From contig CAIRFN010000005.1 in assembly GCA_903877885.1 (NCBI GenBank), forward strand, positions 17,956 through 81,955: 64,000 nt of DNA, given 5' to 3'. The stretch is from an uncultured Candidatus Berkelbacteria bacterium (GTDB lineage: Bacteria; Patescibacteriota; UBA1384; UBA12157). Position numbers and translations under genes: made by a program. The notes under the pieces are model-generated. The model was not told where the DNA came from. It did not search any database and was given only the letters and a program-made list of their open reading frames with translations. This document shows, one piece after another, positions 10,634-62,656 of the stretch (position 1 is its first letter; every line of letters starts with the position of its first letter).

Positions 10634-10735
10634 TATTTAGTATCTGGCAGTAAGTATCTGGTATTAAAAATTATTATGTTCCCATACTAAATACCAGCTA
10701 CTAGATACCATATACCAATCAAAAGGAGTGGGAAA

Positions 10736-11344: not shown

Positions 11345-11372
11345 AAAATAGTATCTGGTGTACAGAGTAACA

Positions 11373-11408
11373 AAGGACAGTCCTTAAACGCGTAAAAGGA
11401 CTGTCCTT
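11373..11408. repeat. REP-like palindromic element (aaggacagtcctt arms), copy 1
   Basis: aaggacagtcctt-aaacgcgtaa-aaggactgtcctt followed by tttt. Located between the convergent genes lepB and 11469..12995. Confidence 0.8.
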
Positions 11409-11468
11409 TTAAATTATAGATCGCCACGGTCTGCTGACCTCGCGATGACAATTTTTTTAGATCTATCT

Positions 11469-15637: not shown

Positions 15638-15691
15638 CCAACACGCGGTGGCCTCCACCGCTTTTTAAATTCTGGCAATCTTCTAACAAAT

Positions 15692-15727
15692 AAGGACAGT
15701 CCTTCAGCGCGTTAAAGGACTGTCCTT
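15692..15727. repeat. REP-like palindromic element, copy 2
   Basis: aaggacagtcctt-cagcgcgtta-aaggactgtcctt followed by ttt. Located just after the fabH-like gene. Confidence 0.8.
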
Positions 15728-15735
15728 TTATTCTT

Positions 15736-16864: not shown

Positions 16865-16954
16865 TTATTGTTGCAAAGTTGACTTAGTCAATTGTGACCG
16901 TTAGCAATTTTGCTGACATCGACCCCCGCCCGAGGCGGGAGAAGGAACCTTAAA

Positions 16955-17446
16955 ATGAAAACTTCCCTGAACTTGATGGTAATGGTTGTACTGGCGGTTT
17001 TTTCGGCGCTCCTGATGACAGGTTGCGGCGAAACGGCCGATCCGGGCAATCTCGCCGCCAAATCGTCAATCGCCATCACCGGCGATGTCTCCCCGACCGC
17101 CAACGGCGCGACGTTCCATGTCTGCCTGACCAACCCGAATCCCGGCACGGTCAGTAAGAACGTGAAGGCGAATATCTTCATCAACCCAAACAGGAAGCTG
17201 GAAGTCTTTGCTGAAACCACCGTGGGTACAAACATCACCAGTTGGCTGTACCTCGACATCCCCAATGGGATGAAAATCGGTACCGTGACCCTGTGCCAGT
17301 GGGACGTCGAGAACAACTGGATTGTTGTTCCGATTGACCCAGTCATGGCAAAAAACCCCAGGAGCATCGACGTCGGCGACATCCTGGCACAGACGCCAAC
17401 AACACAAAACCAACGCTACCTTTATGGAACGTTGGTCCCCAAATAA
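16955..17446 (+). CDS. Lipoprotein (signal peptide with LMTGC lipobox) in a GC-rich island
   Basis: MKTSLNLMVMVVLAVFSALLMTGCGE. The start is trimmed to the ATG at 16955. Markedly higher GC than the flanks. Own promoter and terminator. Confidence 0.55.
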   Translation: MKTSLNLMVMVVLAVFSALLMTGCGETADPGNLAAKSSIAITGDVSPTANGATFHVCLTNPNPGTVSKNVKANIFINPNRKLEVFAETTVGTNITSWLYLDIPNGMKIGTVTLCQWDVENNWIVVPIDPVMAKNPRSIDVGDILAQTPTTQNQRYLYGTLVPK

Positions 17447-17464
17447 CACCGCAATAAAATGCGA

Positions 17465-17502
17465 AACTCCCCCTTTCATTACGATTGGGGGAGTTTTGTT
17501 TT
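17465..17502 (+). terminator. Rho-independent terminator
   Basis: aactccccc ... gggggagtt followed by ttgtttt. Confidence 0.7.
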
Positions 17503-17506
17503 AAAA

Positions 17507-17531
17507 TATGAAGTATGAATCATGAAGTATG
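17507..17531. repeat. Left 25-bp inverted repeat flanking the four-helix-bundle gene
   Basis: gaagtatgaatcatgaagtatggat is an imperfect reverse complement of 17914-17938. Confidence 0.6.
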
Positions 17532-17533
17532 GA

Positions 17534-17911
17534 TTACGGTAAATGACTTTTAGAGCTTTTAATTAAACCGGTTAATAATTTATGAACTATAACTGTTTTG
17601 TTAGCTAAATCAATAAAAATTTTGTTATCAATGTAGCCTATATCTCGCGCGATTAATAACTGATTCTGGAGCTCAGCTACAGAACCTTGAGAAATAGCAT
17701 AAAATTGGATTTTATCTTTATATGATTGACGACAAAATCCCTCGGCAATATTTGAGGTGATTGAGACTGCACATCTTTGAATTTGATTTGTTAAACTAAA
17801 AATTTCGCTTTTAGGAAAATTTTTTGCCGCTTTATATATCCCTAAAACAAGTTCATGCCCTGTTTGCCACGCGTTTAAATCTGTGAATGATTTAATCGAT
17901 TTCCCTTCCAT
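17534..17911 (-). CDS. Four-helix-bundle protein (23S rRNA intervening-sequence protein family)
   Basis: 125 aa. Characteristic ..AWQ..HELV..IYK..FPK.E...L..Q..R...S...NIAEG.. pattern. Confidence 0.8.
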   Translation of the reverse strand: MEGKSIKSFTDLNAWQTGHELVLGIYKAAKNFPKSEIFSLTNQIQRCAVSITSNIAEGFCRQSYKDKIQFYAISQGSVAELQNQLLIARDIGYIDNKIFIDLANKTVIVHKLLTGLIKSSKSHLP

Positions 17912-17913
17912 AA

Positions 17914-17938
17914 TTCATACTCCATGATCCATACTTCT
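17914..17938. repeat. Right 25-bp inverted repeat flanking the four-helix-bundle gene
   Basis: attcatactccatgatccatacttc. About 22 of 25 positions match the reverse complement of the left repeat. Confidence 0.6.
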
Positions 17939-17941
17939 ACC

Positions 17942-19258
17942 CTATCCATCCATTCTCTTTAACAACGCGTCGCGAGCGATTTTGCGGTCAGACCAAGGAA
18001 TTTTCTTTTCGCCAACCACCATACATTCCTCGGCGCCTTTGCCGGTAATGAGAACTATATCATCTTTGTGAGCAATTTTAATAGCCTTTTCAATCGCCTC
18101 TTTGCGATCAAAAATCTGGAAAAAGTTCTCGTTTAAAACTTTGGGATTTTTGCTATCAGCGCCGCGAGGCACGCCGCCGGAGACTTCCTCGATAATTTTT
18201 TGAGCGTCCTCGGTATATGGATCTTCGTTCGTCACAATCACAATATCGGCAAATTTACCAGCTAAGGCGCCCAAGATTGGCCGTTTGGTTTTATCACGAT
18301 CGCCGCAAGAACCCAAAACCGAAATAATTCGAGCTTTTTTAGCCATATCCAAGGTTTGATAAACTTTCTCCAAAGCGTCTGGCGTATGAGCGTAATCAAT
18401 AATGACAGCAAAACTTTGGCCTATATCCACTTTTTCCATTCGACCTGGAACCACATCCATTTCTTCGAGTGCTTGTTTGGCCACATCCAAATGAATTTTT
18501 AAAGCATAGGCCACACAAATCGCAGCCAAAGCATTATAAATATTAAACTTGCCGGGCAAATTAGAATTAACCGCAATTTGACTGGTTGGAGTGACAATCG
18601 TAAACATTGAACCAGTTGGTTCTAGAATAATTTTTTTAGCTAAAATTTCAGGTCGAACCTGACGCGTGGTTTGAGCATTTTCAATACCGTAAGTGATAAT
18701 ATCGCGAGCTGGTAAAGCCGCAAGCTGATCAATTGTTTTTTCATCATCATTATTTAAAATATTAATCGTTTTGCCAGTCGAAAAAAGTTTGGTTTTAACC
18801 TTGCGATATTCCTCAAAAGTCTTATGATAATCCAGATGGTCGTGCGTCATATTGGTCATAATGGCAATCTGATAATTGATCCCATAAGTGCGATATTGGC
18901 TAATGGCGTGAGAAGAAGTTTCCAAAACCACCCAATGACAGCCAGCTTTAAGGCATCGACTCAAAAACTTTTGAACCGCAAATGGCGAGTCGGTGGTCAT
19001 TTTAGTCGTATTAACCCACTCTTCTTTACCAATCTTAAAATTAATCGTCGTGGCCATACCCACACGGTAATTGGCTTTTTCCAAAATTCTGGCAATCATA
19101 TTACAAGTCGTGGTTTTGCCGTTTGTACCAGTCACACCGATAATTTTGAGTTTTCGACCAGGAAAACCATAAATCATGGCCGCCAAAACGCCTCGGGCGA
19201 AATGCGTCCAAATGATAAATGATTCAGGTAAAATTGATTTAAGATAAGATTTAATCAT
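17942..19258 (-). CDS. murE: Mur ligase, MurE-like (UDP-MurNAc-L-Ala-D-Glu : diamino acid ligase) with a short N-terminal domain
   Basis: GVTGTNGKTTT P-loop, DHLDYH, GKFNIYNALAA, GRMEKV, IIDYAHTPDALEKV and ITGKGAE motifs. Confidence 0.75.
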   Translation of the reverse strand: MIKSYLKSILPESFIIWTHFARGVLAAMIYGFPGRKLKIIGVTGTNGKTTTCNMIARILEKANYRVGMATTINFKIGKEEWVNTTKMTTDSPFAVQKFLSRCLKAGCHWVVLETSSHAISQYRTYGINYQIAIMTNMTHDHLDYHKTFEEYRKVKTKLFSTGKTINILNNDDEKTIDQLAALPARDIITYGIENAQTTRQVRPEILAKKIILEPTGSMFTIVTPTSQIAVNSNLPGKFNIYNALAAICVAYALKIHLDVAKQALEEMDVVPGRMEKVDIGQSFAVIIDYAHTPDALEKVYQTLDMAKKARIISVLGSCGDRDKTKRPILGALAGKFADIVIVTNEDPYTEDAQKIIEEVSGGVPRGADSKNPKVLNENFFQIFDRKEAIEKAIKIAHKDDIVLITGKGAEECMVVGEKKIPWSDRKIARDALLKRMDG

Positions 19259-20217
19259 TTCCTTCTCATCTTCTCGATAAACTTAAATAAATTATACCAG
19301 CATTTGCTGTAAATAATATCCCAACTTCCGACTGTTTGGTATTTGATGCCGCCAAATTGCTCTTTAAATTGAGTGATACCGGCGTATTTATGTTTTTTGT
19401 CATTCTGAGCTTGCGAAGAATCTATAGATCCTTCACTGCGTTCAGGATGACTATTAAATGGCGCTACTGCTAATAAATCATAAAACTTGCAACCTTTGGC
19501 TTTGGCGATTTTAATCGCCTCCCAGTGCATTAGGTATGGTGCCATTACATTGCGATATTTTGATAAGCTTGCTCCATAAAGATAAGTCGCCATTTCGTCA
19601 AAAAAAGTAAAAATTCCAGCCGCCACGGGAATATCATTATATTTAACAACCAAAAGTTCAACGGAATTTATTTCTTTTAAGGTTTGAATTAATTTAGCAA
19701 AATATTTTTTTGGTCTGATTTGAAAACCATCTCGGCTAGCCGTTTCCTTAAAAATTTCGTAAAATTCGTCAATATTTTGTGATTTTTCAACAACTAAACC
19801 ATGTTTTTGCCCTACTTTAATATTATATCGGCCTTTTGGTTTCATTTTGGCCAAAATTTCTTCTTCAGATTTTGTTATATCCACAATTTGACGATATTCT
19901 GGCTGAATCTCTTCAAACGATTTAATGAGATGATTTTTCTTCAAAATTGTTGTAATTTTTCCACCAAAAACCGAGTTTTTTTGATTCAAAAAATCTAACC
20001 TTAAAAATATCGAGTGGGATTTTTTAGAAATTTCTTTAATTTTTGGTAAAAATTTGGGGAAATTGATTTTGTAAAAATCGACTTCCGGCGAGTACAGAAA
20101 ACTAAAACCCAGTGGTAATGGTTTTTCCAAAACTAAAACCTCATCAACCCAATGGGCTTTCCAACCTTGACTTTCGCGAAGCGCAGCCCATTCCTTTGTT
20201 TGTAGAATTGATTTCAT
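19255..20217 (-). CDS. FemAB-family peptidoglycan interpeptide aminoacyltransferase (FemX-like)
   Basis: 320 aa. N-terminus MKSILQTKEWAALRESQGW and overall Fem-family layout. It overlaps murE by 4 nt. It carries an in-frame family-B element. Confidence 0.65.
   Translation of the reverse strand: MKSILQTKEWAALRESQGWKAHWVDEVLVLEKPLPLGFSFLYSPEVDFYKINFPKFLPKIKEISKKSHSIFLRLDFLNQKNSVFGGKITTILKKNHLIKSFEEIQPEYRQIVDITKSEEEILAKMKPKGRYNIKVGQKHGLVVEKSQNIDEFYEIFKETASRDGFQIRPKKYFAKLIQTLKEINSVELLVVKYNDIPVAAGIFTFFDEMATYLYGASLSKYRNVMAPYLMHWEAIKIAKAKGCKFYDLLAVAPFNSHPERSEGSIDSSQAQNDKKHKYAGITQFKEQFGGIKYQTVGSWDIIYSKCWYNLFKFIEKMRRK
19398..19452. repeat. Family-B palindromic element in frame in the femX-like gene
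   Basis: tgtcattctgagcttgcgaagaatctatagatccttcactgcgttcaggatgac. Translated as ..HPERSEGSIDSSQAQND.. Confidence 0.8.
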
Positions 20218-21888: not shown

Positions 21889-24039
21889 ATGCAAGAATTA
21901 CCATCAAATTACAATTATAAAGAAACTGAAGACAAAATTTATGCGCTGTGGGAAGAAGCCGGCGCGTTTAAACCAGTTATTGATCCTAATCAAAAACCAT
22001 ATACGATTGTGATTCCGCCACCAAATGTGACTGGTTCTCTTCATATGGGTCATGCTTTAAATAACACAATTCAAGATATTTTAATTCGTCGCTCTCGGAT
22101 GCGTGGCGTGCCAACTCTATGGATTCCCGGAACTGATCATGCCGGTATTGCTACTCAAAATGTGGTGGAAAAAAAGTTGGCTAAAGAAGGCAAAACTCGT
22201 CAAGAACTTGGGCGCGAAGAGTTCACCAAAGAAGTTTGGGATTGGGTTGATCAATATGGCAACACTATTATTGGACAGCTCAAGAAAATGGGTTGTTCTT
22301 GCGATTGGTCCAGACAGCGTTTTACCATGGATGAAGGCTATTCAGAAGCGGTTAAAGTCGCGTTCAAAAATTACTATGATAAGGGTTATATTTATCAAGG
22401 TGAACGAGTGATCAACTGGTGTACCCGTTGTCAAACTGCCTTATCTGATATCGAAGTCGAACATATTGATCAAAACGCTAAACTATATTTTTTTAAATAT
22501 GATAAAAATTTTCCGATCACCATTGCCACTACGCGACCAGAGACAAAGCTTGGCGATACAGGTGTAGCGGTCAATCCGAAAGACAAAAGATATCAGGATT
22601 ACATTGGTAAAACTTTCAAGGTTAATTTTTGCGGTGTCGACCGCGAGATTCGGGTTTTTGCTGACATTAGTATTGATATAACCTTTGGCACTGGCGCCGT
22701 CGGAGTCACTCCAGCGCATTCTTTGGTTGACTATGAAATGGCCGAAAAAAATGGCTTGGATATTATTAAAGTGATTGATCAATATGGGAAAATGACCAAA
22801 GAAGCGGGAACAGAATTTGAAGGTTTGAAAGCAACTGAAGCGCAAGCCAAAGTCATCGAAATGTTGGAAAAAGCTGGGCTGATGGAAAAAGTGGAAGAAA
22901 TCCAAAACGCGATCAGTGTGTGTTATCGCTGTAATCGACCGATTGAGCCTCAACCGTCAAAACAATGGTTTTTAAAGATGTCGGAATTAGCAAAACCAGC
23001 GATTGAAGCGGTTAAATCTGGTCAAATTAAATTCACACCAGACCGTTGGACCAAAGTTTATTTAGACTGGATGGAAAATTTGCGCGACTGGTGCATTTCT
23101 CGCCAAATCTGGTGGGGGCACACCATTCCAATTGAAGGCGAAACTGATGTTTTGGACACTTGGTTTTCGTCAGCCTTGTGGCCGTTTGCCACACTTGGTT
23201 GGCCCAATAAAACTGAAGACCTAAAATATTTTTATCCGACCACCACACTTTCCACTGCCCGCGATATTATTTATCTGTGGGTGGCACGAATGATTTTTTC
23301 AGGGCTTGAATTTACCAACGAAATTCCATTTTCACAGGTTTATATTCATCCAACGGTTTTCAATAAAGAAGGTAAACGCATGTCCAAATCTTTGGGCACC
23401 GGCGTCGATCCTTTGGAACTGATCGAGAAATACGGTGCCGATGCCACGCGATTTGGTCTTACCTATATTAATACCGGGATTCAAGATTTGAAATTTGACG
23501 AAGAAGCTATTGGTGCTGGCAAAAAATTTGCCAATAAGTTGTGGAATATCACCAGATTCATGTTGATGAGCATTTGTCATTCCGGTCCGGATGGCTCCGG
23601 AACCGGAATCCAGGAAAATGATAATCTGGATTCCAGATCAGGTTGCCAACCAGTCTGGAATGACAAGATGGAACCAAGAACTGAAGCCGATAAAATCATT
23701 CTTGAAAAACTTAATGCCGTTATTAAATCAACTGACAAAAATCTTGATGAATTTAAATTTGGCCAAGCGGCGCATGATTTGTATGATTTCGTCTGGCACG
23801 ATTTGGCCGACGTATATATAGAAGAAAGCAAAGTGACCGCGAACGGTCATCCCGAGCCGAAGTCCGGCGAGGGAACCCCTGATTTTTCAGTATTACTTTA
23901 TGTAATAGTAACTTCGATTAAACTTTTGCACCCGATTATGCCGTTTGTAACAGAAGAAATCTGGCAAAAACTCTACGAAGATAAATTAGTTGATGAAAGA
24001 ATGCTGATTACGGCAAAATGGCCAAAAGCACAAGAATAG
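21889..24039 (+). CDS. valS: Valyl-tRNA synthetase (compact form)
   Basis: PPPNVTGSLHMGHAL HIGH region, KMSKS (GKRMSKSLG) and anticodon-binding region. Carries an in-frame family-A element at 23575-23665. Confidence 0.9.
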   Translation: MQELPSNYNYKETEDKIYALWEEAGAFKPVIDPNQKPYTIVIPPPNVTGSLHMGHALNNTIQDILIRRSRMRGVPTLWIPGTDHAGIATQNVVEKKLAKEGKTRQELGREEFTKEVWDWVDQYGNTIIGQLKKMGCSCDWSRQRFTMDEGYSEAVKVAFKNYYDKGYIYQGERVINWCTRCQTALSDIEVEHIDQNAKLYFFKYDKNFPITIATTRPETKLGDTGVAVNPKDKRYQDYIGKTFKVNFCGVDREIRVFADISIDITFGTGAVGVTPAHSLVDYEMAEKNGLDIIKVIDQYGKMTKEAGTEFEGLKATEAQAKVIEMLEKAGLMEKVEEIQNAISVCYRCNRPIEPQPSKQWFLKMSELAKPAIEAVKSGQIKFTPDRWTKVYLDWMENLRDWCISRQIWWGHTIPIEGETDVLDTWFSSALWPFATLGWPNKTEDLKYFYPTTTLSTARDIIYLWVARMIFSGLEFTNEIPFSQVYIHPTVFNKEGKRMSKSLGTGVDPLELIEKYGADATRFGLTYINTGIQDLKFDEEAIGAGKKFANKLWNITRFMLMSICHSGPDGSGTGIQENDNLDSRSGCQPVWNDKMEPRTEADKIILEKLNAVIKSTDKNLDEFKFGQAAHDLYDFVWHDLADVYIEESKVTANGHPEPKSGEGTPDFSVLLYVIVTSIKLLHPIMPFVTEEIWQKLYEDKLVDERMLITAKWPKAQE
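23575..23665. repeat. Family-A MITE-like element in frame in valS
   Basis: tgtcattccggtccggatggctccggaaccggaatccag...ctggattccagatcaggttgccaaccagtctggaatgaca. Translated as ..CHSGPDGSGTGIQENDNLDSRSGCQPVWNDK.. Confidence 0.8.
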
Positions 24040-24049
24040 ATAAATTTTG

Positions 24050-24068
24050 AAATTCGAATTTTGAATTT
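24050..24068. repeat. Outer 19-bp inverted repeat, left arm (aaattcgaattttgaattt)
   Basis: Its reverse complement is identical to 24481-24499. Lies within gaaattc-type short tandem repeats. Confidence 0.75.
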
Positions 24069-24074
24069 TTTCTT

Positions 24075-24451
24075 TGTCATTCCAGACCGGCCGGAGGCAG
24101 GATCTGGAATCCAGAATAAAATGAATAATTATTATGTGTATATTTTGACTAGCAGAAGAAACGGCACTTTATATATTGGCGTAACTAATGATCTGATTAA
24201 AAGAATATGGGAACATAAAAACCATAGTAAAAAAGGATTTACAGAAAAATATAACATTTGCCAATTGATATACTTTGAGCAAACTAATAATATAAACTCC
24301 GCTATTAATAGAGAAAAACAATTAAAATCATGGAATAGAAAATGGAAACTTGACTTAATTGAGAAAGTCAATCCTGATTGGAAAGATTTATATCAAGAAT
24401 TGTTGTAACTGGATTCCCGATGTCGGATGCCATCCGACTCGAGAATGACAA
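24075..24451 (+). mobile_element. Full-length family-A element carrying a GIY-YIG nuclease ORF between its two terminal modules
   Basis: Left module tgtcattccagaccggccggaggcaggatctggaatccag (24075-24114). ORF 24121-24408. Right module ctggattcccgatgtcggatgccatccgactcgagaatgaca (24410-24451). The short MITE copies (e.g. 38811-38904) are these two modules joined directly. Confidence 0.75.
24121..24408 (+). CDS. GIY-YIG nuclease family protein (UPF0213/YhbQ-like, about 95 aa)
   Basis: ..YYVYILTSRRNGTLYIGVTNDLIKRIWEHKN.. with the GIY...YIG motifs. The start is trimmed to the ATG at 24121. The track frame is open from 24061 through the left terminal module. Confidence 0.85.
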   Translation: MNNYYVYILTSRRNGTLYIGVTNDLIKRIWEHKNHSKKGFTEKYNICQLIYFEQTNNINSAINREKQLKSWNRKWKLDLIEKVNPDWKDLYQELL

Positions 24452-24480
24452 TTGGATAATTAAAAATTGATTCGAAATTC

Positions 24481-24499
24481 GAAATTCAAAATTCGAATT
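24481..24499. repeat. Outer 19-bp inverted repeat, right arm (aaattcaaaattcgaattt)
   Basis: Exact reverse complement of 24050-24068. Confidence 0.75.
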
Positions 24500-24514
24500 T
24501 AATTGAAAGTTACT

Positions 24515-37741: not shown

Positions 37742-37752
37742 ATACAGACCAA

Positions 37753-37788
37753 AAGGACAGTCCTTCAGCGCGTTAAAGGACTGTCCTT
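37753..37788. repeat. REP-like palindromic element, copy 3
   Basis: aaggacagtcctt-cagcgcgtta-aaggactgtcctt tt. It is followed by a ttgataccagatacc motif. Confidence 0.8.
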
Positions 37789-37839
37789 TTGGATAATCTG
37801 ACACTTGATACCAGATACCAAATGCTATATACTTGACCC

Positions 37840-38793
37840 ATGACCATACAACAAATTTTTGAACTCGGAATTAAATTAGGCGTTAAAAACGATCCTCGAG
37901 GAAAAGTCGGCGTCAAACGCTGGCTTGATTTGCAAAAAAAGAAATTCGATAAAATCTCGAAAGAAGAAAAAGAATTTTTTGATTTAGAACGTTTAACCAA
38001 CCCTTATGCTGATAGTCGAATTTTATTTGACAATAAAAAACCAATCAAACGAATGGCGGCCGGGATTGATATTAATGTTGGCGAAATTGCCTTGTTAAAC
38101 ACACTTGAACCAAAAGTTGATTTAGTTATGGCTCATCATCCGGAAGGTAAAGCTCTGGCCGCGCTTGATGAAGTGATGCACTTACAAGCCGATCTGATGG
38201 CCAGTTACGGTGTCCCGATCAATGTAGCCGAAGGCGTGATGCGCGAACGAATTGAAAAAGTTTCTCGTCAAATTTCACCAAGTAATCATAAGCAAGCAGT
38301 TGATGCCGCGAAACTGGTTGATTTGCCAATGTTTTGTTTGCATACTCCTTGCGACAATTTAGTTTTCCAATTTTTGCAAAATTTAATGGATACGAAAAAA
38401 CCGGAAACTGTGGCTGAAATTGTGGAAATCCTCCAAAAAGTACCGGAATATCGCCTGGCGACTTTAGATAAAGCCGGTCCGCGAATTTTCGCTGGCAGTC
38501 CAGAAAATCGCTGTGGTAAAATCGTGGCCTTTGATATTACCGGCGGCACATCAGGTTCAAAAGAAGTTTATCCAGAATTAGTTCGAGCCAGCATTGGCAC
38601 GGTTATCGGTATGCATATGAATGAAGAAAACCGCGAAGAAGCGCTCAAAAATCATTTGAATATTGTCATCGCCGGCCATATTTCCTCCGACTCACTTGGT
38701 ATGAATTTATATTTAGATGAACTCGAAAAAGAAGGAATCGAGATAATTCCGATTAGTGGGTTGATCCGCGTAAAAAGAAGTAAGAAAAGTTAA
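37840..38793 (+). CDS. Nif3-family dinuclear metal centre protein (YqfO/YbgI-like)
   Basis: 317 aa. AHHPEG, HTPCDN and IVIAGHISSDSLGMN motifs. Possible TTGATA, 17-bp spacer, TATACT promoter at 37806-37834. Confidence 0.7.
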   Translation: MTIQQIFELGIKLGVKNDPRGKVGVKRWLDLQKKKFDKISKEEKEFFDLERLTNPYADSRILFDNKKPIKRMAAGIDINVGEIALLNTLEPKVDLVMAHHPEGKALAALDEVMHLQADLMASYGVPINVAEGVMRERIEKVSRQISPSNHKQAVDAAKLVDLPMFCLHTPCDNLVFQFLQNLMDTKKPETVAEIVEILQKVPEYRLATLDKAGPRIFAGSPENRCGKIVAFDITGGTSGSKEVYPELVRASIGTVIGMHMNEENREEALKNHLNIVIAGHISSDSLGMNLYLDELEKEGIEIIPISGLIRVKRSKKS

Positions 38794-38921: not shown

Positions 38922-40070
38922 TTATTTATTAACTTCTTTCTTCAGTTCTTCCACTTTATCCGTTCTCTCCCAAGGTAAATCTAATTCTGGTCTACCGAAA
39001 TGGCCATAGGCGGCAATTTTTTGGTAGATTGGTTTTCGAAGATCTAAGGCTTGGATAATCATCCCTGGTCGTAAATCAAAAACTTTACTCACCGCTTGAG
39101 CGATTTTATCGTCTTCAATGGTGCCAGTACCAAACGTATCAATTCGCACCGACATTGGTTCAGCTCGACCGATGGCATAAGCAATCTGCACTTCACAGCG
39201 TTCGGCTAATTTTGCGGCAACGATATTCTTGGCCACCCATCTGGCCGCATAGCTACCCGACCGATCAACTTTACTCGGATCTTTTCCAGAGAAACAACCG
39301 CCACCGTGACGCGCATAGCCACCATAAGTATCAACAATAATTTTGCGGCCGGTCAGTCCAGTATCACCTTGCGGCCCACCAATCACAAACCGACCGGTGG
39401 TGTTGACATAGTAGTTTGTATTTTGAAGCAAGGATTTAGGGATAACTTTTTCAATTACTTTCTCGATAATTTCTTTTTTTAAGATCGATGTTTTAATATT
39501 TTCATCATGTTGTGCCGCAATTAAAACCGATTCGATGCGGACTGGTTTGTCGCCATCATATTCAACTGTAACCTGGCTTTTGCCGTCTGGTCGCAAGCCT
39601 TTGACAATCCCCTTTTTTCGAACTTCAGCCAAGCGTTGGCAAAGTTTGTGAGCCAAAACAATTGGCAAAGGCATTAATTCTTTGGTTTCGCGACAAGCAT
39701 AACCAAACATCAAACCTTGATCACCGGCGCCTAGATTTTCCAAGTCTTCGACCAAAGGACAGTCCTTTTGTTCCTTTAAGGACTGTCCTTTACTAAACGC
39801 ATCAACACCCTGTGCAATATCGGCTGATTGTTCCTTAACCGCCACCATTACACCGGAAGTTTCCCAGTGAAAACCATATTCGGCATTTGTATAGCCAATT
39901 TGTTTAATGACGTTGCGAGCGATTTTCGGAATATCGACATATGTTTTAGTGGTAATTTCTCCAGCGATAATACAAACGCCGTTGGTCAGCAATGTTTCGC
40001 AAGCGACTCGTCCTTGCGGATCGTCAGTTAAAATTGCATCGAGTACCGCATCACTAATCTGATCAGCCAT
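38922..40070 (-). CDS. metK: S-adenosylmethionine synthetase
   Basis: [35 protein letters not shown] and the rest of the canonical MetK sequence. Carries an in-frame REP-like insertion at 39765-39800 (..[17 protein letters not shown]..). Confidence 0.95.
39765..39800. repeat. REP-like palindromic element inserted in frame inside metK
   Basis: aaggacagtcctt-ttgttccttt-aaggactgtcctt. It adds about 12-16 residues relative to the conserved MetK loop before GAGDQG. Confidence 0.8.
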
Positions 40071-40292: not shown

Positions 40293-40412
40293 TCACCGCA
40301 AGCGGTGAAATATATAAAAACATCTTTCCCGCAAGGGGTCGGAGGTAGCACCTAAATTAATGGGTTGCTGGTGGATCATCGGGCCGAATCCCTCACCACA
40401 CTCTTGATATTA
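40293..40412 (-). ncRNA. SAM-I (S-box) riboswitch with an intrinsic terminator, upstream of metK
   Basis: Minus-strand read: AUCAAGAGUGUGGUGAGGGAUUCGGCCCGAUGAUCCACCAGCAACC...GGUGCUACCUCCGAC. This matches the conserved SAM-I core AGAGnGGnGGAGGGAnnGGCCCGAUGAnnCCnnGCAACC...GGUGCUA. It is followed by a terminator tcaccgcttgcggtga plus a T-run at 40280-40308. Confidence 0.8.
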
Positions 40413-40528
40413 AAATTAATTTTTAACTAAATTTATCATATTATAACCATCTAACTTTTGTCAAACTCTTGCCTGGAAACAATTTTTGCTTTAAGATGTA
40501 AATATTAAATTTATATTTTAGGAGCAAA

Positions 40529-61437: not shown

Positions 61438-61460
61438 AAAGTAGACGGTATCCGACAATA

Positions 61461-61495
61461 AAGGACTGTCCTTCAACGCGCTAAAGGACAGTCCT
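61461..61495. repeat. REP-like palindromic element, copy 5
   Basis: aaggactgtcctt-caacgcgcta-aaggacagtcctt tttt. Followed by atacttgatactaaatcctaaatactagatac. Confidence 0.8.
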
Positions 61496-61540
61496 TTTTA
61501 AATACTTGATACTAAATCCTAAATACTAGATACTAATTTT

Positions 61541-61813
61541 ATGATGGATAAAATTAGTGGATTTTTAAGCCACAACTCAAAATATCAAAGGCTGTCCGGG
61601 CCGCTTCGCGCCGCTCAAGTTTGTGATACAGCACGCGAACTTGGCCTTAATCGTTTCGGCGTTGCAAGTTTCAAAGACGGGCTTCTAACGCTTACCGTCG
61701 AAAATTCCATGGCCGGGGCCAACTTGCAAATGGAAATACCAGAAATAATCCAATCTGTGAATACTAAAATTGGACAAGAGTTAGTCAAAAAAATTAGATT
61801 TAAAATTCAGTAG
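61541..61813 (+). CDS. DUF721-like small protein (DciA-like fold candidate)
   Basis: 90 aa. ..GLLTLTVENSMAGANLQMEIPEIIQSVNTKIGQELVKKIRFK.. resembles the DUF721 consensus. Low-certainty call. Confidence 0.4.
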   Translation: MMDKISGFLSHNSKYQRLSGPLRAAQVCDTARELGLNRFGVASFKDGLLTLTVENSMAGANLQMEIPEIIQSVNTKIGQELVKKIRFKIQ

Positions 61814-61823
61814 CTTTACCTAA

Positions 61824-61859
61824 AAGGACAGTCCTTCAGCGCGTTAAAGGACTGTCCTT
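61824..61859. repeat. REP-like palindromic element, copy 6
   Basis: aaggacagtcctt-cagcgcgtta-aaggactgtcctt t. Located between convergent genes. Confidence 0.8.
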
Positions 61860-61877
61860 TATTGTTTGTGATTTTTC

Positions 61878-62558: not shown

Positions 62559-62628
62559 AACAATAAAACACTTATTATATATTTATCATATCACAAACAT
62601 TTATCAAAACGTATTAGTTAAATTACTT

Positions 62629-62641
62629 AAGGACAGTCCTT
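62629..62641. repeat. REP-like single arm (aaggacagtcctt)
   Basis: A self-complementary 13-mer followed by tttt. Confidence 0.55.
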
Positions 62642-62656
62642 TTAGTTTCATAGATT

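What the first reader, a model, noticed from the sequence alone, without database searches (positions are those of the whole stretch)
17507..17938. Four-helix-bundle (23S IVS-type) gene carried as a cassette flanked by 25-bp inverted repeats
Genes of this family are classically found inside rRNA intervening sequences. Here the gene is free-standing but bracketed by imperfect 25-bp inverted repeats: gaagtatgaatcatgaagtatggat and attcatactccatgatccatacttc.

This suggests it moves as a small cassette or forms a long stem. It may be an IVS-like element now outside rRNA.
Basis: partly seen in the sequence, partly recalled or inferred. Interest (0 to 1): 0.55.

Follow-up and report, generated by a model that had tools for sequence, protein, structure and literature searches.

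The report
Four-helix-bundle gene inside heptamer-repeat palindrome

Summary
Two 30-nt arms (17510-17539 and 17908-17937, 26/30 complementary) bracket a 125-aa minus-strand PF05635 gene exactly. The Shine-Dalgarno sequence (SD) and AUG lie in one arm and the stop codon in the other.

This layout is a family trait. In 71 of 82 Patescibacteria homologues the flanks are inverted heptamer arrays with diverse sequences. PF05635 genes of Xanthomonadales, cyanobacteria, Riemerella and Azospirillum are also flanked by heptamer arrays, mostly inverted. The published Coxiella 23S IVS also has tandem heptamers ahead of its ORF and an RNase III-cut terminal stem.

None of the 85 genes examined lies in rRNA, so free-standing is the norm and the rRNA IVS is probably the special case.

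ORF-less heptamer hairpins occur in the same genomes. One orthologous site is bare in the window, holds an empty hairpin in 15 relatives, and holds a PF05635 gene in the hairpin loop in one relative.

The gene here is old and under purifying selection (dN/dS about 0.04). No transposase or target-site duplication was found. There is no G·U-over-A·C bias, so an RNA stem is predicted but not shown.

Most likely it is an insulated IVS-type cassette; its mobility and the protein's role remain inferred.

The parts
17908..17937 (-). 5' arm of the cassette on the sense (minus) strand: four heptamers GAAGTAT GGATCAT GGAGTAT GAATTAT + GG. It contains the SD GGAG (17920-17923) and the start codon (17909-17911). 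It begins 4 nt after the stop codon of the Mur ligase gene (17942-17944).
17534..17911 (-). 125-aa gene of the PF05635 family (23S rRNA intervening-sequence protein / S23p / 'four helix bundle protein'). The protein is basic (pI 9.3).
   Evidence: Pfam E=1.3e-35; XCC0516 / PDB 2GSC E=9e-18; more than 3000 homologues; dN/dS about 0.04 against the L089 orthologue; pI
17510..17539 (-). 3' arm on the sense strand: CC GTAATCC ATACTTC ATGATTC ATACTTC. This is the inverted complement of the 5' arm and contains the stop codon TAA (17534-17536).
17467..17503 (.). G+C-rich hairpin CTCCCCC-N13-GGGGGAG with T/A runs on both sides, directly outside the 3' arm. It is probably a bidirectional terminator for the femAB-mur-4HB transcript and for the convergent ORF 16910-17446. 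The same hairpin follows the orthologous cassette in L089.
   Evidence: read from sequence; L089 comparison. Not listed by the terminator scan, whose loop limit is 8 nt.
10636..10719 (.). ORF-less heptamer-array hairpin of the same kind: GTATTTA GTATCTG GCAGTAA GTATCTG GTATTAA, a loop, then TACTAAA TACCAGC TACTAGA TACCATA TACCAAT. It lies between rpsT and the next gene.
   Evidence: fold -21.6 kcal/mol, z = -4.3
24040..24503 (+). Second loaded hairpin. Inverted heptamer arrays 24040-24076 and 24465-24503 (GAATTTT/GAAATTC type) bracket a small GIY-YIG gene (24121-24408) together with that gene's own GTCATTCC...GGAATGAC palindromic units.
   Evidence: arm duplex -25.3 against -7.1 +/- 2.7 kcal/mol; GIY-YIG Pfam label
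37796..37834 (.). Solo heptamer array (NNNATAC type, that is GTATNNN on the minus strand). It lies between a repeated hairpin and the ATG of gene 37840-38793.
61499..61540 (.). Solo heptamer array (TAAATAC x5, GTATTTA on the minus strand) directly upstream of the small ORF 61541-61813.

Best explanation
The feature is an IVS-type cassette: a PF05635 (S23p) gene housed in the loop of a palindrome whose arms are inverted arrays of about four heptamer repeats.

It lies at the 3' end of the femAB-mur operon and is most likely transcribed by read-through; no convincing promoter of its own was found. In the transcript the two arms would pair into a stem of about 30-37 bp. That stem buries the SD, the AUG and the stop codon.

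By analogy with ORF-bearing 23S rRNA IVSs of the same build, the stem would be a substrate for RNase III. Cleavage would cut the cassette RNA away from the host transcript and limit translation of the gene. This self-insulating design would explain why such cassettes are tolerated between tightly packed operon genes and occasionally inside rRNA.

The arrays gain, lose and shuffle units by slippage or conversion. ORF-less hairpins of the same kind are scattered in the same genomes.

Shown here: the anatomy, its conservation in orthologues and across phyla, purifying selection on the protein, and the series bare site / empty hairpin / loaded hairpin at one orthologous site.

Inferred: co-transcription, stem formation in vivo, RNase III cleavage, and any mobility.
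For: Anatomy and significance of the arms.

Patescibacteria homologues (82 cassettes):
- Cognate inverted-flank score has median 26.5, against 14 for non-cognate, direct-orientation or shuffled flanks.
- 71/82 exceed the shuffled 95th percentile; Mann-Whitney p = 2e-26.
- Lag-7 autocorrelation of both flanks is 0.50 against a background of 0.27-0.30.
- Arms end about 4 nt from the ATG and begin about 3 nt after the stop, with about 4 units per arm.
- The G-rich array is upstream in 50 of 52 cases and never the reverse.

Orthologues after the Mur ligase gene keep arms of the same class, with 2 to 8 units. Synonymous sites are saturated (pS 0.72-0.78) while pN is 0.09.

Coxiella 23S IVS (PMC4990558): a 28-bp terminal stem, an SD followed by three tandem GACAGAT heptamers before the S23p ORF, copy number varying between strains, and RNase III cutting at the first repeat.

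Other phyla: XCC0516 orthologues in Xanthomonas, Dyella and Lysobacter sit between accB and accC, flanked by inverted GGGAATC-type arrays. Of 16 plasmid-borne genes from cyanobacteria, Riemerella and Azospirillum, about 11 have inverted heptamer-like arrays by eye.

ORF-less hairpins at the femAB|mur junction occur in 15 of 16 relatives (z = -2.5 to -6.2). A PF05635 gene sits in the loop of the homologous hairpin in L087.
Against: - There is no RNA-specific signal. Arm mismatches give 32 G·U against 29 A·C, and 100 of 161 are transversions. The 16 operon-internal hairpins are no more stable on the sense strand than on the antisense strand (p = 0.56).
- Some cyanobacterial genes have direct or one-sided arrays that cannot form a stem: Pseudanabaena, Nostoc 7120, Stanieria, Oscillatoria.
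- Whether unit order is mirrored beyond array-level similarity is inconclusive.
- No transcript data exist, and no RNase III gene was sought.
- A stem that hides the SD and AUG sits uneasily with strong purifying selection on the protein, which implies that the protein is made.
Confidence: 0.5

Rival explanations
1. The heptamer arrays are binding sites for the encoded protein, a basic toroidal pentamer related to the nucleic-acid-binding DGR protein Avd. About four to five repeat cores would wrap one pentamer. Binding to its own flanks would autoregulate the gene. Binding to the dispersed ORF-less arrays would make this a cognate protein-repeat system organised like REP/RAYT. On this reading the inverted symmetry is secondary. 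This rival is not exclusive of the stem model.
For: - Arms consist of a conserved 4-nt core (GAAT 30, GTAT 17, GTAG 5, GATT 4 cassettes) plus 3 variable positions.
- Transversions are the majority of arm mismatches (100 of 161), which no pairing model predicts.
- Core class follows protein similarity: the nearest protein neighbour shares the class in 73% of cases against 38% under permutation, p < 0.0005.
- Other arrays in the same locus share the class of the gene's arms in 60% against 32%, p = 0.004.
- Direct or one-sided arrays still accompany the gene in some cyanobacteria.
- There are about 4 units per arm. The closest solved relative, XCC0516, has five chains in the entry and is described as a toroidal pentamer in PMC4990558.
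- Family pI has median 9.5.
- Avd homology is stated in PMC10053308.
- In Xanthomonas the gene's flanks are the same GGGAATC unit that is dispersed genome-wide.
Against: - There are no binding data.
- The class-protein correlation could reflect shared descent or host lineage alone.
- 98 of 162 non-flanking arrays fit none of the four core classes.
- Cassettes in one genome can carry different classes (L028, L079, L087).
- Covarying residues (positions 63, 64, 120) were not corrected for phylogeny.
Confidence: 0.3
2. It is a DNA-level mobile element. The arrays act as terminal inverted repeats, or as portable homology, and the cassette is copied into new intergenic sites or into the loops of existing hairpins. 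Transfer would be by a trans-acting enzyme, or by gene conversion between arrays. ORF-less hairpins would be its non-autonomous or decayed forms.
For: - Occupancy is patchy at two orthologous sites. At the mur|exo junction the cassette is present in the window, L087-L089 and L092. It is absent in L090, L091 and L093. Mur directly abuts Exo in L109, L111, L114, L123, L125 and L143.
- At the femAB|mur junction there is the bare / empty hairpin / loaded hairpin series, with the L087 arms homologous to the empty hairpin of L093.
- Cassettes sit between operon genes in many lineages: accB|accC, cas6|cas4, and between the two ribonucleotide reductase subunit genes.
- No strand bias in hairpin stability fits a DNA-level palindrome.
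- A GIY-YIG nuclease gene occupies another heptamer hairpin in the window.
Against: - No transposase, integrase or HUH domain was found.
- No target-site duplication is visible at the arm ends.
- The gene is single-copy in the window.
- The cassette at this site is ancient and vertically inherited.
- The Xanthomonadales cassette is fixed at accB|accC across genera.
Confidence: 0.15
3. It is the accessory (Avd) gene of a diversity-generating retroelement.
For: There is a weak PF22296 bAvd match (30.2 bits). PF05635 is homologous to Avd (PMC10053308).
Against: - The bAvd score is below the Pfam cut-off of 40.
- Neighbours within 10 kb are femAB, a Mur ligase, a 5'-3' exonuclease, TsaD, an aaRS and similar genes, with no reverse transcriptase.
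- No template or variable repeat pair was found around the gene.
Confidence: 0.02

Closest known systems
ORF-bearing 23S rRNA intervening sequences (Coxiella burnetii, Leptospira; S23p ORF)
   Same: The protein family is the same (PF05635). Terminal inverted repeats of about 28-30 bp enclose the ORF. Tandem heptamers with variable copy number lie between the stem and the start codon, and the SD lies inside the stem region (PMC4990558).
   Different: The cassette is not in rRNA: it lies after a Mur ligase gene, and there is no rRNA in the window or in any of the 85 homologous loci. The gene here is intact and under purifying selection, whereas the Coxiella ORF is decaying and apparently untranslated. 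RNase III cleavage is untested here.
Heptameric simple-sequence-repeat arrays: GGGAATC in Xanthomonas, GGGGAYT in Nostoc (Rehm et al. 2015, PMC4692102)
   Same: These are tandem 7-nt units, mostly intergenic, about four units long, and often in convergent inverted pairs. The XCC0516 gene of Xanthomonas is itself flanked by these very units. The GAAT core is shared with the commonest Patescibacteria class.
   Different: That work treated the arrays as G-quadruplex-forming SSRs and does not mention the PF05635 gene: searches for XCC0516, S23 and 'ribosomal protein' gave 0 occurrences. The window's units are A+T-rich and cannot form G-quadruplexes.
REP/BIME elements and REPtrons (RAYT gene flanked by inverted REPs)
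   Same: A single gene is bracketed by inverted copies of a short repeat that also occurs as dispersed ORF-less hairpins in intergenic and intra-operon positions. Repeat class tracks protein lineage.
   Different: The protein is a four-helix bundle and shows no HUH/Y1 transposase match. The repeats are tandem heptamer arrays rather than a single imperfect palindrome. The comparison with REP/RAYT rests on my own knowledge of those systems and was not tested here.
bAvd, accessory protein of diversity-generating retroelements
   Same: It has a homologous fold and sequence family and a basic, pentameric assembly.
   Different: There is no reverse transcriptase and no template/variable repeats nearby, and the bAvd score is below the cut-off.

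Membership tests
PF05635 23S_rRNA_IVP / S23p / 'four helix bundle protein' | Sequence match above the curated Pfam threshold over the full domain | tested here: met
   122.3 bits against a cut-off of 33.8, profile positions 2-106 of 106
PF05635 23S_rRNA_IVP / S23p / 'four helix bundle protein' | Homology to the solved family members (XCC0516, 2GSC) | tested here: met
   phmmer E=9.4e-18 to 2GSC and 4.8e-4 to 2RLD. The conserved R..S..SN..EG motif is invariant across 23 relatives.
PF05635 23S_rRNA_IVP / S23p / 'four helix bundle protein' | Homopentameric toroid | not testable with these tools
   Only inferred from 2GSC (5 chains) and from the description in PMC4990558
23S rRNA intervening sequence (IVS) | Inserted in a 23S rRNA gene (helix 25 or 45) | tested here: not met
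   No rRNA in the window (Rfam). No rRNA similarity in any fetched locus. The neighbours are protein-coding genes.
23S rRNA intervening sequence (IVS) | Complementary termini able to form a long stem that encloses the element | tested here: met
   30-nt arms, 87% complementary; duplex -44.7 kcal/mol against -17.1 +/- 3.1; fold z = -7.2
23S rRNA intervening sequence (IVS) | S23p ORF in the loop, preceded by tandem heptamers (Coxiella type) | tested here: met
   compared with PMC4990558
23S rRNA intervening sequence (IVS) | Excision from the transcript by RNase III | not testable with these tools
   Needs transcript-end mapping or an in vitro cleavage assay
Diversity-generating retroelement (Avd accessory gene) | Adjacent reverse transcriptase and template/variable repeat pair | tested here: not met
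   No RT among the called neighbours within 10 kb. No such repeat pair. bAvd score 30.2, below the cut-off of 40.
Transposon / MITE with terminal inverted repeats | Target-site duplication, several near-identical copies, and a transposase in cis or in trans | tested here: not met
   No direct repeat at the arm ends. Single copy in the window. The only Pfam domains are PF05635 and bAvd. A trans-acting enzyme elsewhere in the genome cannot be excluded.
REPtron-like organisation (gene flanked by inverted copies of a dispersed repeat) | The same repeat class also dispersed as ORF-less hairpins in the genome | tested here: inconclusive
   The window has one ORF-less hairpin and two solo arrays of GTAT type. 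The same-locus class match is 60% against 32%. However, many arrays fall in no class, and whole genomes were not available.
REPtron-like organisation (gene flanked by inverted copies of a dispersed repeat) | HUH/Y1 (RAYT) transposase | tested here: not met
   The only Pfam matches are PF05635 and bAvd

The most novel reading that the evidence does not exclude
PF05635 proteins are the cognate partners of bacterial heptamer tandem-repeat arrays. On this reading there is a pan-bacterial protein-repeat system. The gene is bracketed by arrays of its own heptamer class. ORF-less arrays and hairpins of that class spread through intergenic and intra-operon sites. The classical ORF-bearing rRNA IVS is merely the case where such a unit landed in rRNA. 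This would give a function to a large orphan protein family, and a cause for the long-noted excess of heptameric repeats in bacterial genomes (GGGAATC in Xanthomonas, heptamer repeats in Nostoc and Calothrix).
Probability: 0.3. Interest if true: 0.8.

Novelty: new variant of a known kind. Interest (0 to 1): 0.62.

Why it matters
The S23p / 'four helix bundle protein' family has thousands of members and solved structures, yet no known function outside its DGR relative Avd. ORF-bearing rRNA IVSs have been unexplained since the 1990s. The over-representation of heptameric tandem repeats in bacteria has also lacked a cause.

The evidence here ties the three together. PF05635 genes from five phyla were found flanked by heptamer arrays. 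The bona fide Coxiella IVS shares the design. The GGGAATC repeat of Xanthomonas flanks the very gene whose structure was solved.

This gives a concrete, testable hypothesis in a tractable organism: Xanthomonas, at accB-XCC0516-accC. It also explains why these genes appear inside operons and cas loci.

I found no paper in the searchable library that makes this link. That library omits most subscription journals, so prior description cannot be excluded.

Tried and rejected
- G·U versus A·C test on 52 cassettes: 32 vs 29, no sense-strand RNA signal.
- Sense versus antisense folding energy of 16 operon-internal hairpins: no bias.
- Unit-order permutation tests for a true mirrored palindrome. With strict arrays only 5 cassettes qualified and gave no signal. 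Looser versions gave z of about 1.5 but are biased by flanking units or by alignment selection. Overall inconclusive.
- Search for other copies of the gene or arms in the window: none.
- Search for rRNA in the window and in all loci: none. I therefore could not examine CPR rRNA-borne copies directly.
- Small GIY-YIG genes do not share heptamer flanks as a general rule. Of 3 homologues, only L037 has a heptamer array, upstream only. The two with readable flanks (L042, L037) carry GTCATCC-type palindromic units instead. The window's GIY-YIG probably sits in a pre-existing heptamer hairpin.
- I recalled a link of PF05635 to the HEPN superfamily. The HEPN survey (PMC3710099) does not mention this family, so I dropped the idea.
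- Residue-to-core-class covariation (positions 63, 64, 120) is not corrected for phylogeny and is kept only as a lead.
- DGR reading rejected.
- No structure prediction or fold search was run, because the sequence match to 2GSC already answers the fold question.

Full report
**1. What is there**

The repeat finder extends them to 30-nt arms, 17510-17539 and 17908-17937, 87% complementary and 368 nt apart. Between them, on the minus strand, lies a 125-aa ORF (17534-17911). It matches PF05635 23S_rRNA_IVP over the whole profile (E = 1.3e-35, 122 bits against a cut-off of 33.8).

The arms are not plain inverted repeats. Each is four tandem heptamers. On the sense strand the 5' arm reads GAAGTAT GGATCAT GGAGTAT GAATTAT GG. 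The fit to the gene is exact:
- The start codon (17909-17911) and a GGAG 8 nt upstream of it lie inside the 5' arm.
- The stop codon (17534-17536) lies inside the 3' arm.
- The 5' arm starts 4 nt after the stop codon of the upstream Mur ligase gene (17942-19258, same strand).
- The 3' arm is followed by a G+C-rich hairpin at 17467-17493 that also closes the convergent ORF 16910-17446.

Chance is excluded:
- The unit pattern occurs 4 times, all in the arms, against 0.65 expected.
- The arm-arm duplex is -44.7 kcal/mol against -17.1 +/- 3.1 for shuffled partners.
- The whole element folds with z = -7.2.

The gene and its arm sequence are single-copy in the window. The window has no rRNA or tRNA.

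**2. The host and the locus**

The exact protein occurs on 18 contigs with the same neighbours: TsaD, femAB, Mur ligase, the 4HB gene, and a 5'-3' exonuclease. Its relatives are Patescibacteria (CPR).

The block TsaD / femAB / mur / exo is syntenic across relatives whose Mur ligase is 37-82% identical. The cassette after mur is present only in the closest ones:
- L087-L089, with 4HB 85-86% identical.
- L092, with 4HB 69% identical.

It is absent in L090, L091 and L093. In L109, L111, L114, L123, L125 and L143 the mur gene directly abuts exo.

Against the orthologues, synonymous sites are saturated (pS 0.72-0.78) while pN is 0.09. This gives dN/dS of about 0.04 where it can be computed. The protein is therefore functional, and the cassette has been inherited vertically for a long time.

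Despite that divergence the arms stay in the same class. The 5' arm is 25/30 identical to that of L087. Units are shuffled, and their number ranges from 2 (L092 3' arm) to 8 (L087 3' arm).

**3. The architecture is a family trait**

I fetched 80 genome loci with homologues of 53-67% identity from across the Patescibacteria. Nearly every gene is bracketed by inverted heptamer arrays, and the sequences differ from locus to locus: GAATNNN, GTATNNN, GTAGNNN, GATTNNN and others.

Quantitatively (unless stated):
- The cognate inverted-flank score has a median of 26.5. It is 14 for non-cognate pairs, for the direct orientation and for shuffles.
- 71 of 82 cassettes exceed the shuffled 95th percentile, and 51 of 82 exceed the non-cognate 95th percentile.
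- Mann-Whitney p = 2e-26.
- Both flanks show lag-7 autocorrelation of 0.50 against about 0.28 at other lags.
- The G-containing array is upstream of the gene in 50 of 52 cases and never the reverse.
- Arms are about four units long. They end about 4 nt before the ATG and start about 3 nt after the stop.

None of the 85 genes is in rRNA.

**4. The link to true IVSs and to other phyla**

The Coxiella burnetii 23S IVS is a textbook ORF-bearing IVS (PMC4990558). It has:
- a 28-bp terminal stem;
- an SD followed by three tandem GACAGAT heptamers before the S23p start;
- heptamer copy number that varies among strains;
- RNase III cleavage at the first repeat.

That is the same design as in the window.

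The closest solved structure to the window protein is XCC0516 of Xanthomonas campestris (2GSC, E = 9e-18). I retrieved its orthologues in Xanthomonas, Dyella and Lysobacter. In all three the gene sits between accB and accC and is flanked by inverted GGGAATC-type heptamer arrays.

GGGAATC is the heptamer repeat that Rehm et al. (PMC4692102) described at about 186 sites in X. campestris, 70 of them convergent pairs. They did not connect it to this gene.

Sixteen plasmid-borne PF05635 genes were examined by eye:
- About 11 have inverted heptamer or heptamer-like arrays. Examples are Nostoc edaphicum GTAGGGA, N. punctiforme GTCAGGA, Calothrix brevissima GGGTGTA, Geminocystis AAAAGGG, Riemerella GGTTYAA and Azospirillum GACRGAG. 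The last resembles the Coxiella unit.
- Four have direct or one-sided arrays. Pseudanabaena, between cas6 and cas4, has CYAAAAG x14 and x10 in direct orientation. The others are Nostoc 7120 (two plasmids), Stanieria and Oscillatoria.
- One, Calothrix 7716, has none.

**5. ORF-less relatives, and a three-state site**

Heptamer arrays are abundant in these genomes. I found 305 arrays and 106 inverted pairs in about 505 kb. The main spacing peak is 350-400 nt, which is the 4HB ORF. A second group lies at 0-100 nt and has no ORF.

The window itself has:
- an ORF-less hairpin after rpsT (10636-10719, z = -4.3);
- two solo arrays (37796-37834 and 61499-61540);
- a second loaded hairpin that holds a GIY-YIG gene (24040-24503).

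The most telling case is the femAB|mur junction:
- In the window the two genes overlap by 4 nt, with no hairpin.
- In 15 of 16 relatives the junction holds a 77-190-nt heptamer-array hairpin. Every sequence is different, and each is significantly stable (z = -2.5 to -6.2).
- In L087 a 119-aa PF05635 gene sits in the loop of that hairpin. Its arms are visibly homologous to the empty hairpin of L093.

Since only one of about 20 relatives is loaded, the simplest reading is that an ORF was gained into an existing hairpin, or that the hairpin was converted by a loaded one. Deletion in all the others cannot be excluded.

**6. How it works: what is and is not supported**

*The RNA-stem / RNase III model.* It rests on the anatomy, on the strong predicted stem, and on the experimentally characterised Coxiella homologue.

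It explains several things:
- why the SD, start and stop codons are inside the arms;
- why cassettes are tolerated between operon genes (accB|accC, cas6|cas4, femAB|mur) and in rRNA;
- why no promoter of its own is evident.

The data do not show RNA-level selection:
- Arm mismatches give 32 G·U against 29 A·C, and most are transversions.
- The operon-internal hairpins are equally stable on either strand.
- Some cyanobacterial genes have arrays that cannot pair.

*The protein-binding model.* The alternative is that the arrays are sites for the protein itself. Four observations favour it:
- The arms have a core-plus-spacer structure.
- Heptamer class tracks protein similarity (73% against 38%, p < 0.0005).
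- Heptamer class tracks other arrays in the same locus (60% against 32%, p = 0.004).
- The family is basic, with median pI 9.5.

Those correlations could, however, reflect descent alone. The two models are compatible. I rank the insulated IVS-type cassette first (0.5) and the cognate protein-repeat system second (0.3).

*Active DNA mobility.* It has only presence/absence evidence. There is no enzyme, no target-site duplication and no recent copies (0.15).

*DGR role.* It is excluded for practical purposes.

**7.

- The IVS likeness is real and deeper than suspected.
- Free-standing cassettes are the norm and the rRNA IVS the exception.
- Movement is inferred, not shown.
- The stem is predicted, not demonstrated.

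The window's cassette is a new member of a recognisable kind. I found no description of the following in the searchable literature, which excludes most subscription journals:
- the recognition that this kind is defined by inverted heptamer arrays;
- that it spans several phyla;
- that it includes ORF-less hairpins;
- that it coincides with the enigmatic heptamer repeat families.

**8. Limits**

- Most loci are metagenome fragments, so genome-wide counts were impossible.
- Array calling used one threshold. Shuffles of the window gave about 0.2 arrays, against 10 observed.
- The count of about 11 in 16 for other phyla is by eye.
- Core-class assignment left 26 of 83 cassettes as 'mixed'.

Noticed in passing
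window 24040-24503: A small GIY-YIG nuclease gene (24121-24408) is bracketed by its own GTCATTCCAGAC...GAGAATGAC palindromic units. The whole unit sits between inverted heptamer arrays (24040-24076 and 24465-24503). It looks like a selfish gene lodged in the loop of a heptamer hairpin.
   Followed up: partly
window 23576-23664; also 20845, 21266, 21285, 38812/38892, 40185, 46413, 49560/49637, 32336, 13645; FemAB insert about 19395-19450 (-): A dispersed palindromic element with GTCATTCCRGAC...GTCYGGAATGAC termini gives 23 matches against 5.6 expected. Copies lie in frame inside protein-coding genes. One is an 89-nt copy in the aaRS gene 21889-24039 (peptide CHSGPDGSGTGIQENDNLDSRSGCQPVWND). Others are in the TsaD-like gene, and one is in FemAB (SHPERSEGSIDSSQAQNDKK). 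The termini are the same units that flank the GIY-YIG gene, so these look like its ORF-less derivatives.
   Followed up: partly
window 11372-11409, 15691-15728, 37752-37789, 39754-39791, 61460-61497, 61823-61860, 62628-62642: This is a third repeat family: the hairpin AAAGGACAGTCCTT-N9-AAGGACTGTCCTTT, with 21 half-site matches against 0.03 expected. It lies mostly at gene ends, like a terminator. Two inverted copies bracket the small ORF 61541-61813. Two copies are each followed by a solo heptamer array.
   Followed up: partly
window 16910-17446 (+): This ORF has 54-59% G+C in a 40% G+C genome. It has a lipoprotein-like signal (..LLMTGC), no Pfam match, and no homologue in any syntenic relative. 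It sits between the cassette and the exonuclease gene, so it is probably a recent foreign insertion. Gene callers chose the opposite-strand ORF (17066-17479) instead.
   Followed up: partly
L087 4203-4663: A close relative carries a second, divergent PF05635 gene (119 aa) between femAB and mur. Its array orientation is reversed: the pyrimidine-type TTTCTAA array is upstream and the TTAGAAA array downstream. The strong G-rich-upstream rule therefore has exceptions.
   Followed up: yes
L097/L098 4312-4354; L099 4317-4360: In some relatives a solo heptamer array follows the Mur ligase stop codon with no PF05635 gene. In L097 it is GAGATGA GAAATGA GAGATGA followed by a terminator hairpin. In L099 it is TTAGTAA TTAGTGA followed by an unrelated ORF. 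These may be remnants of the cassette or its precursors.
   Followed up: no
L185 (Pseudanabaena plasmid, between cas6 and cas4); L193 (Anabaena 90, next to cas4): PF05635 genes sit inside cas operons. In Pseudanabaena the gene is flanked by very long direct arrays, (CTAAAAG)x14 and (CCAAAAG)x10. Such arrays next to cas genes could contribute to the reported 'CRISPR association' of this family.
   Followed up: no
L171-L179 (Xanthomonas, Dyella, Lysobacter): The structurally solved XCC0516 family gene is fixed between accB and accC across Xanthomonadales genera. The accC start codon directly abuts the 3' heptamer array.
   Followed up: partly
window 40317-40413 (-): SAM riboswitch (RF00162, 57.6 bits), the only Rfam match in the window.
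   Followed up: no
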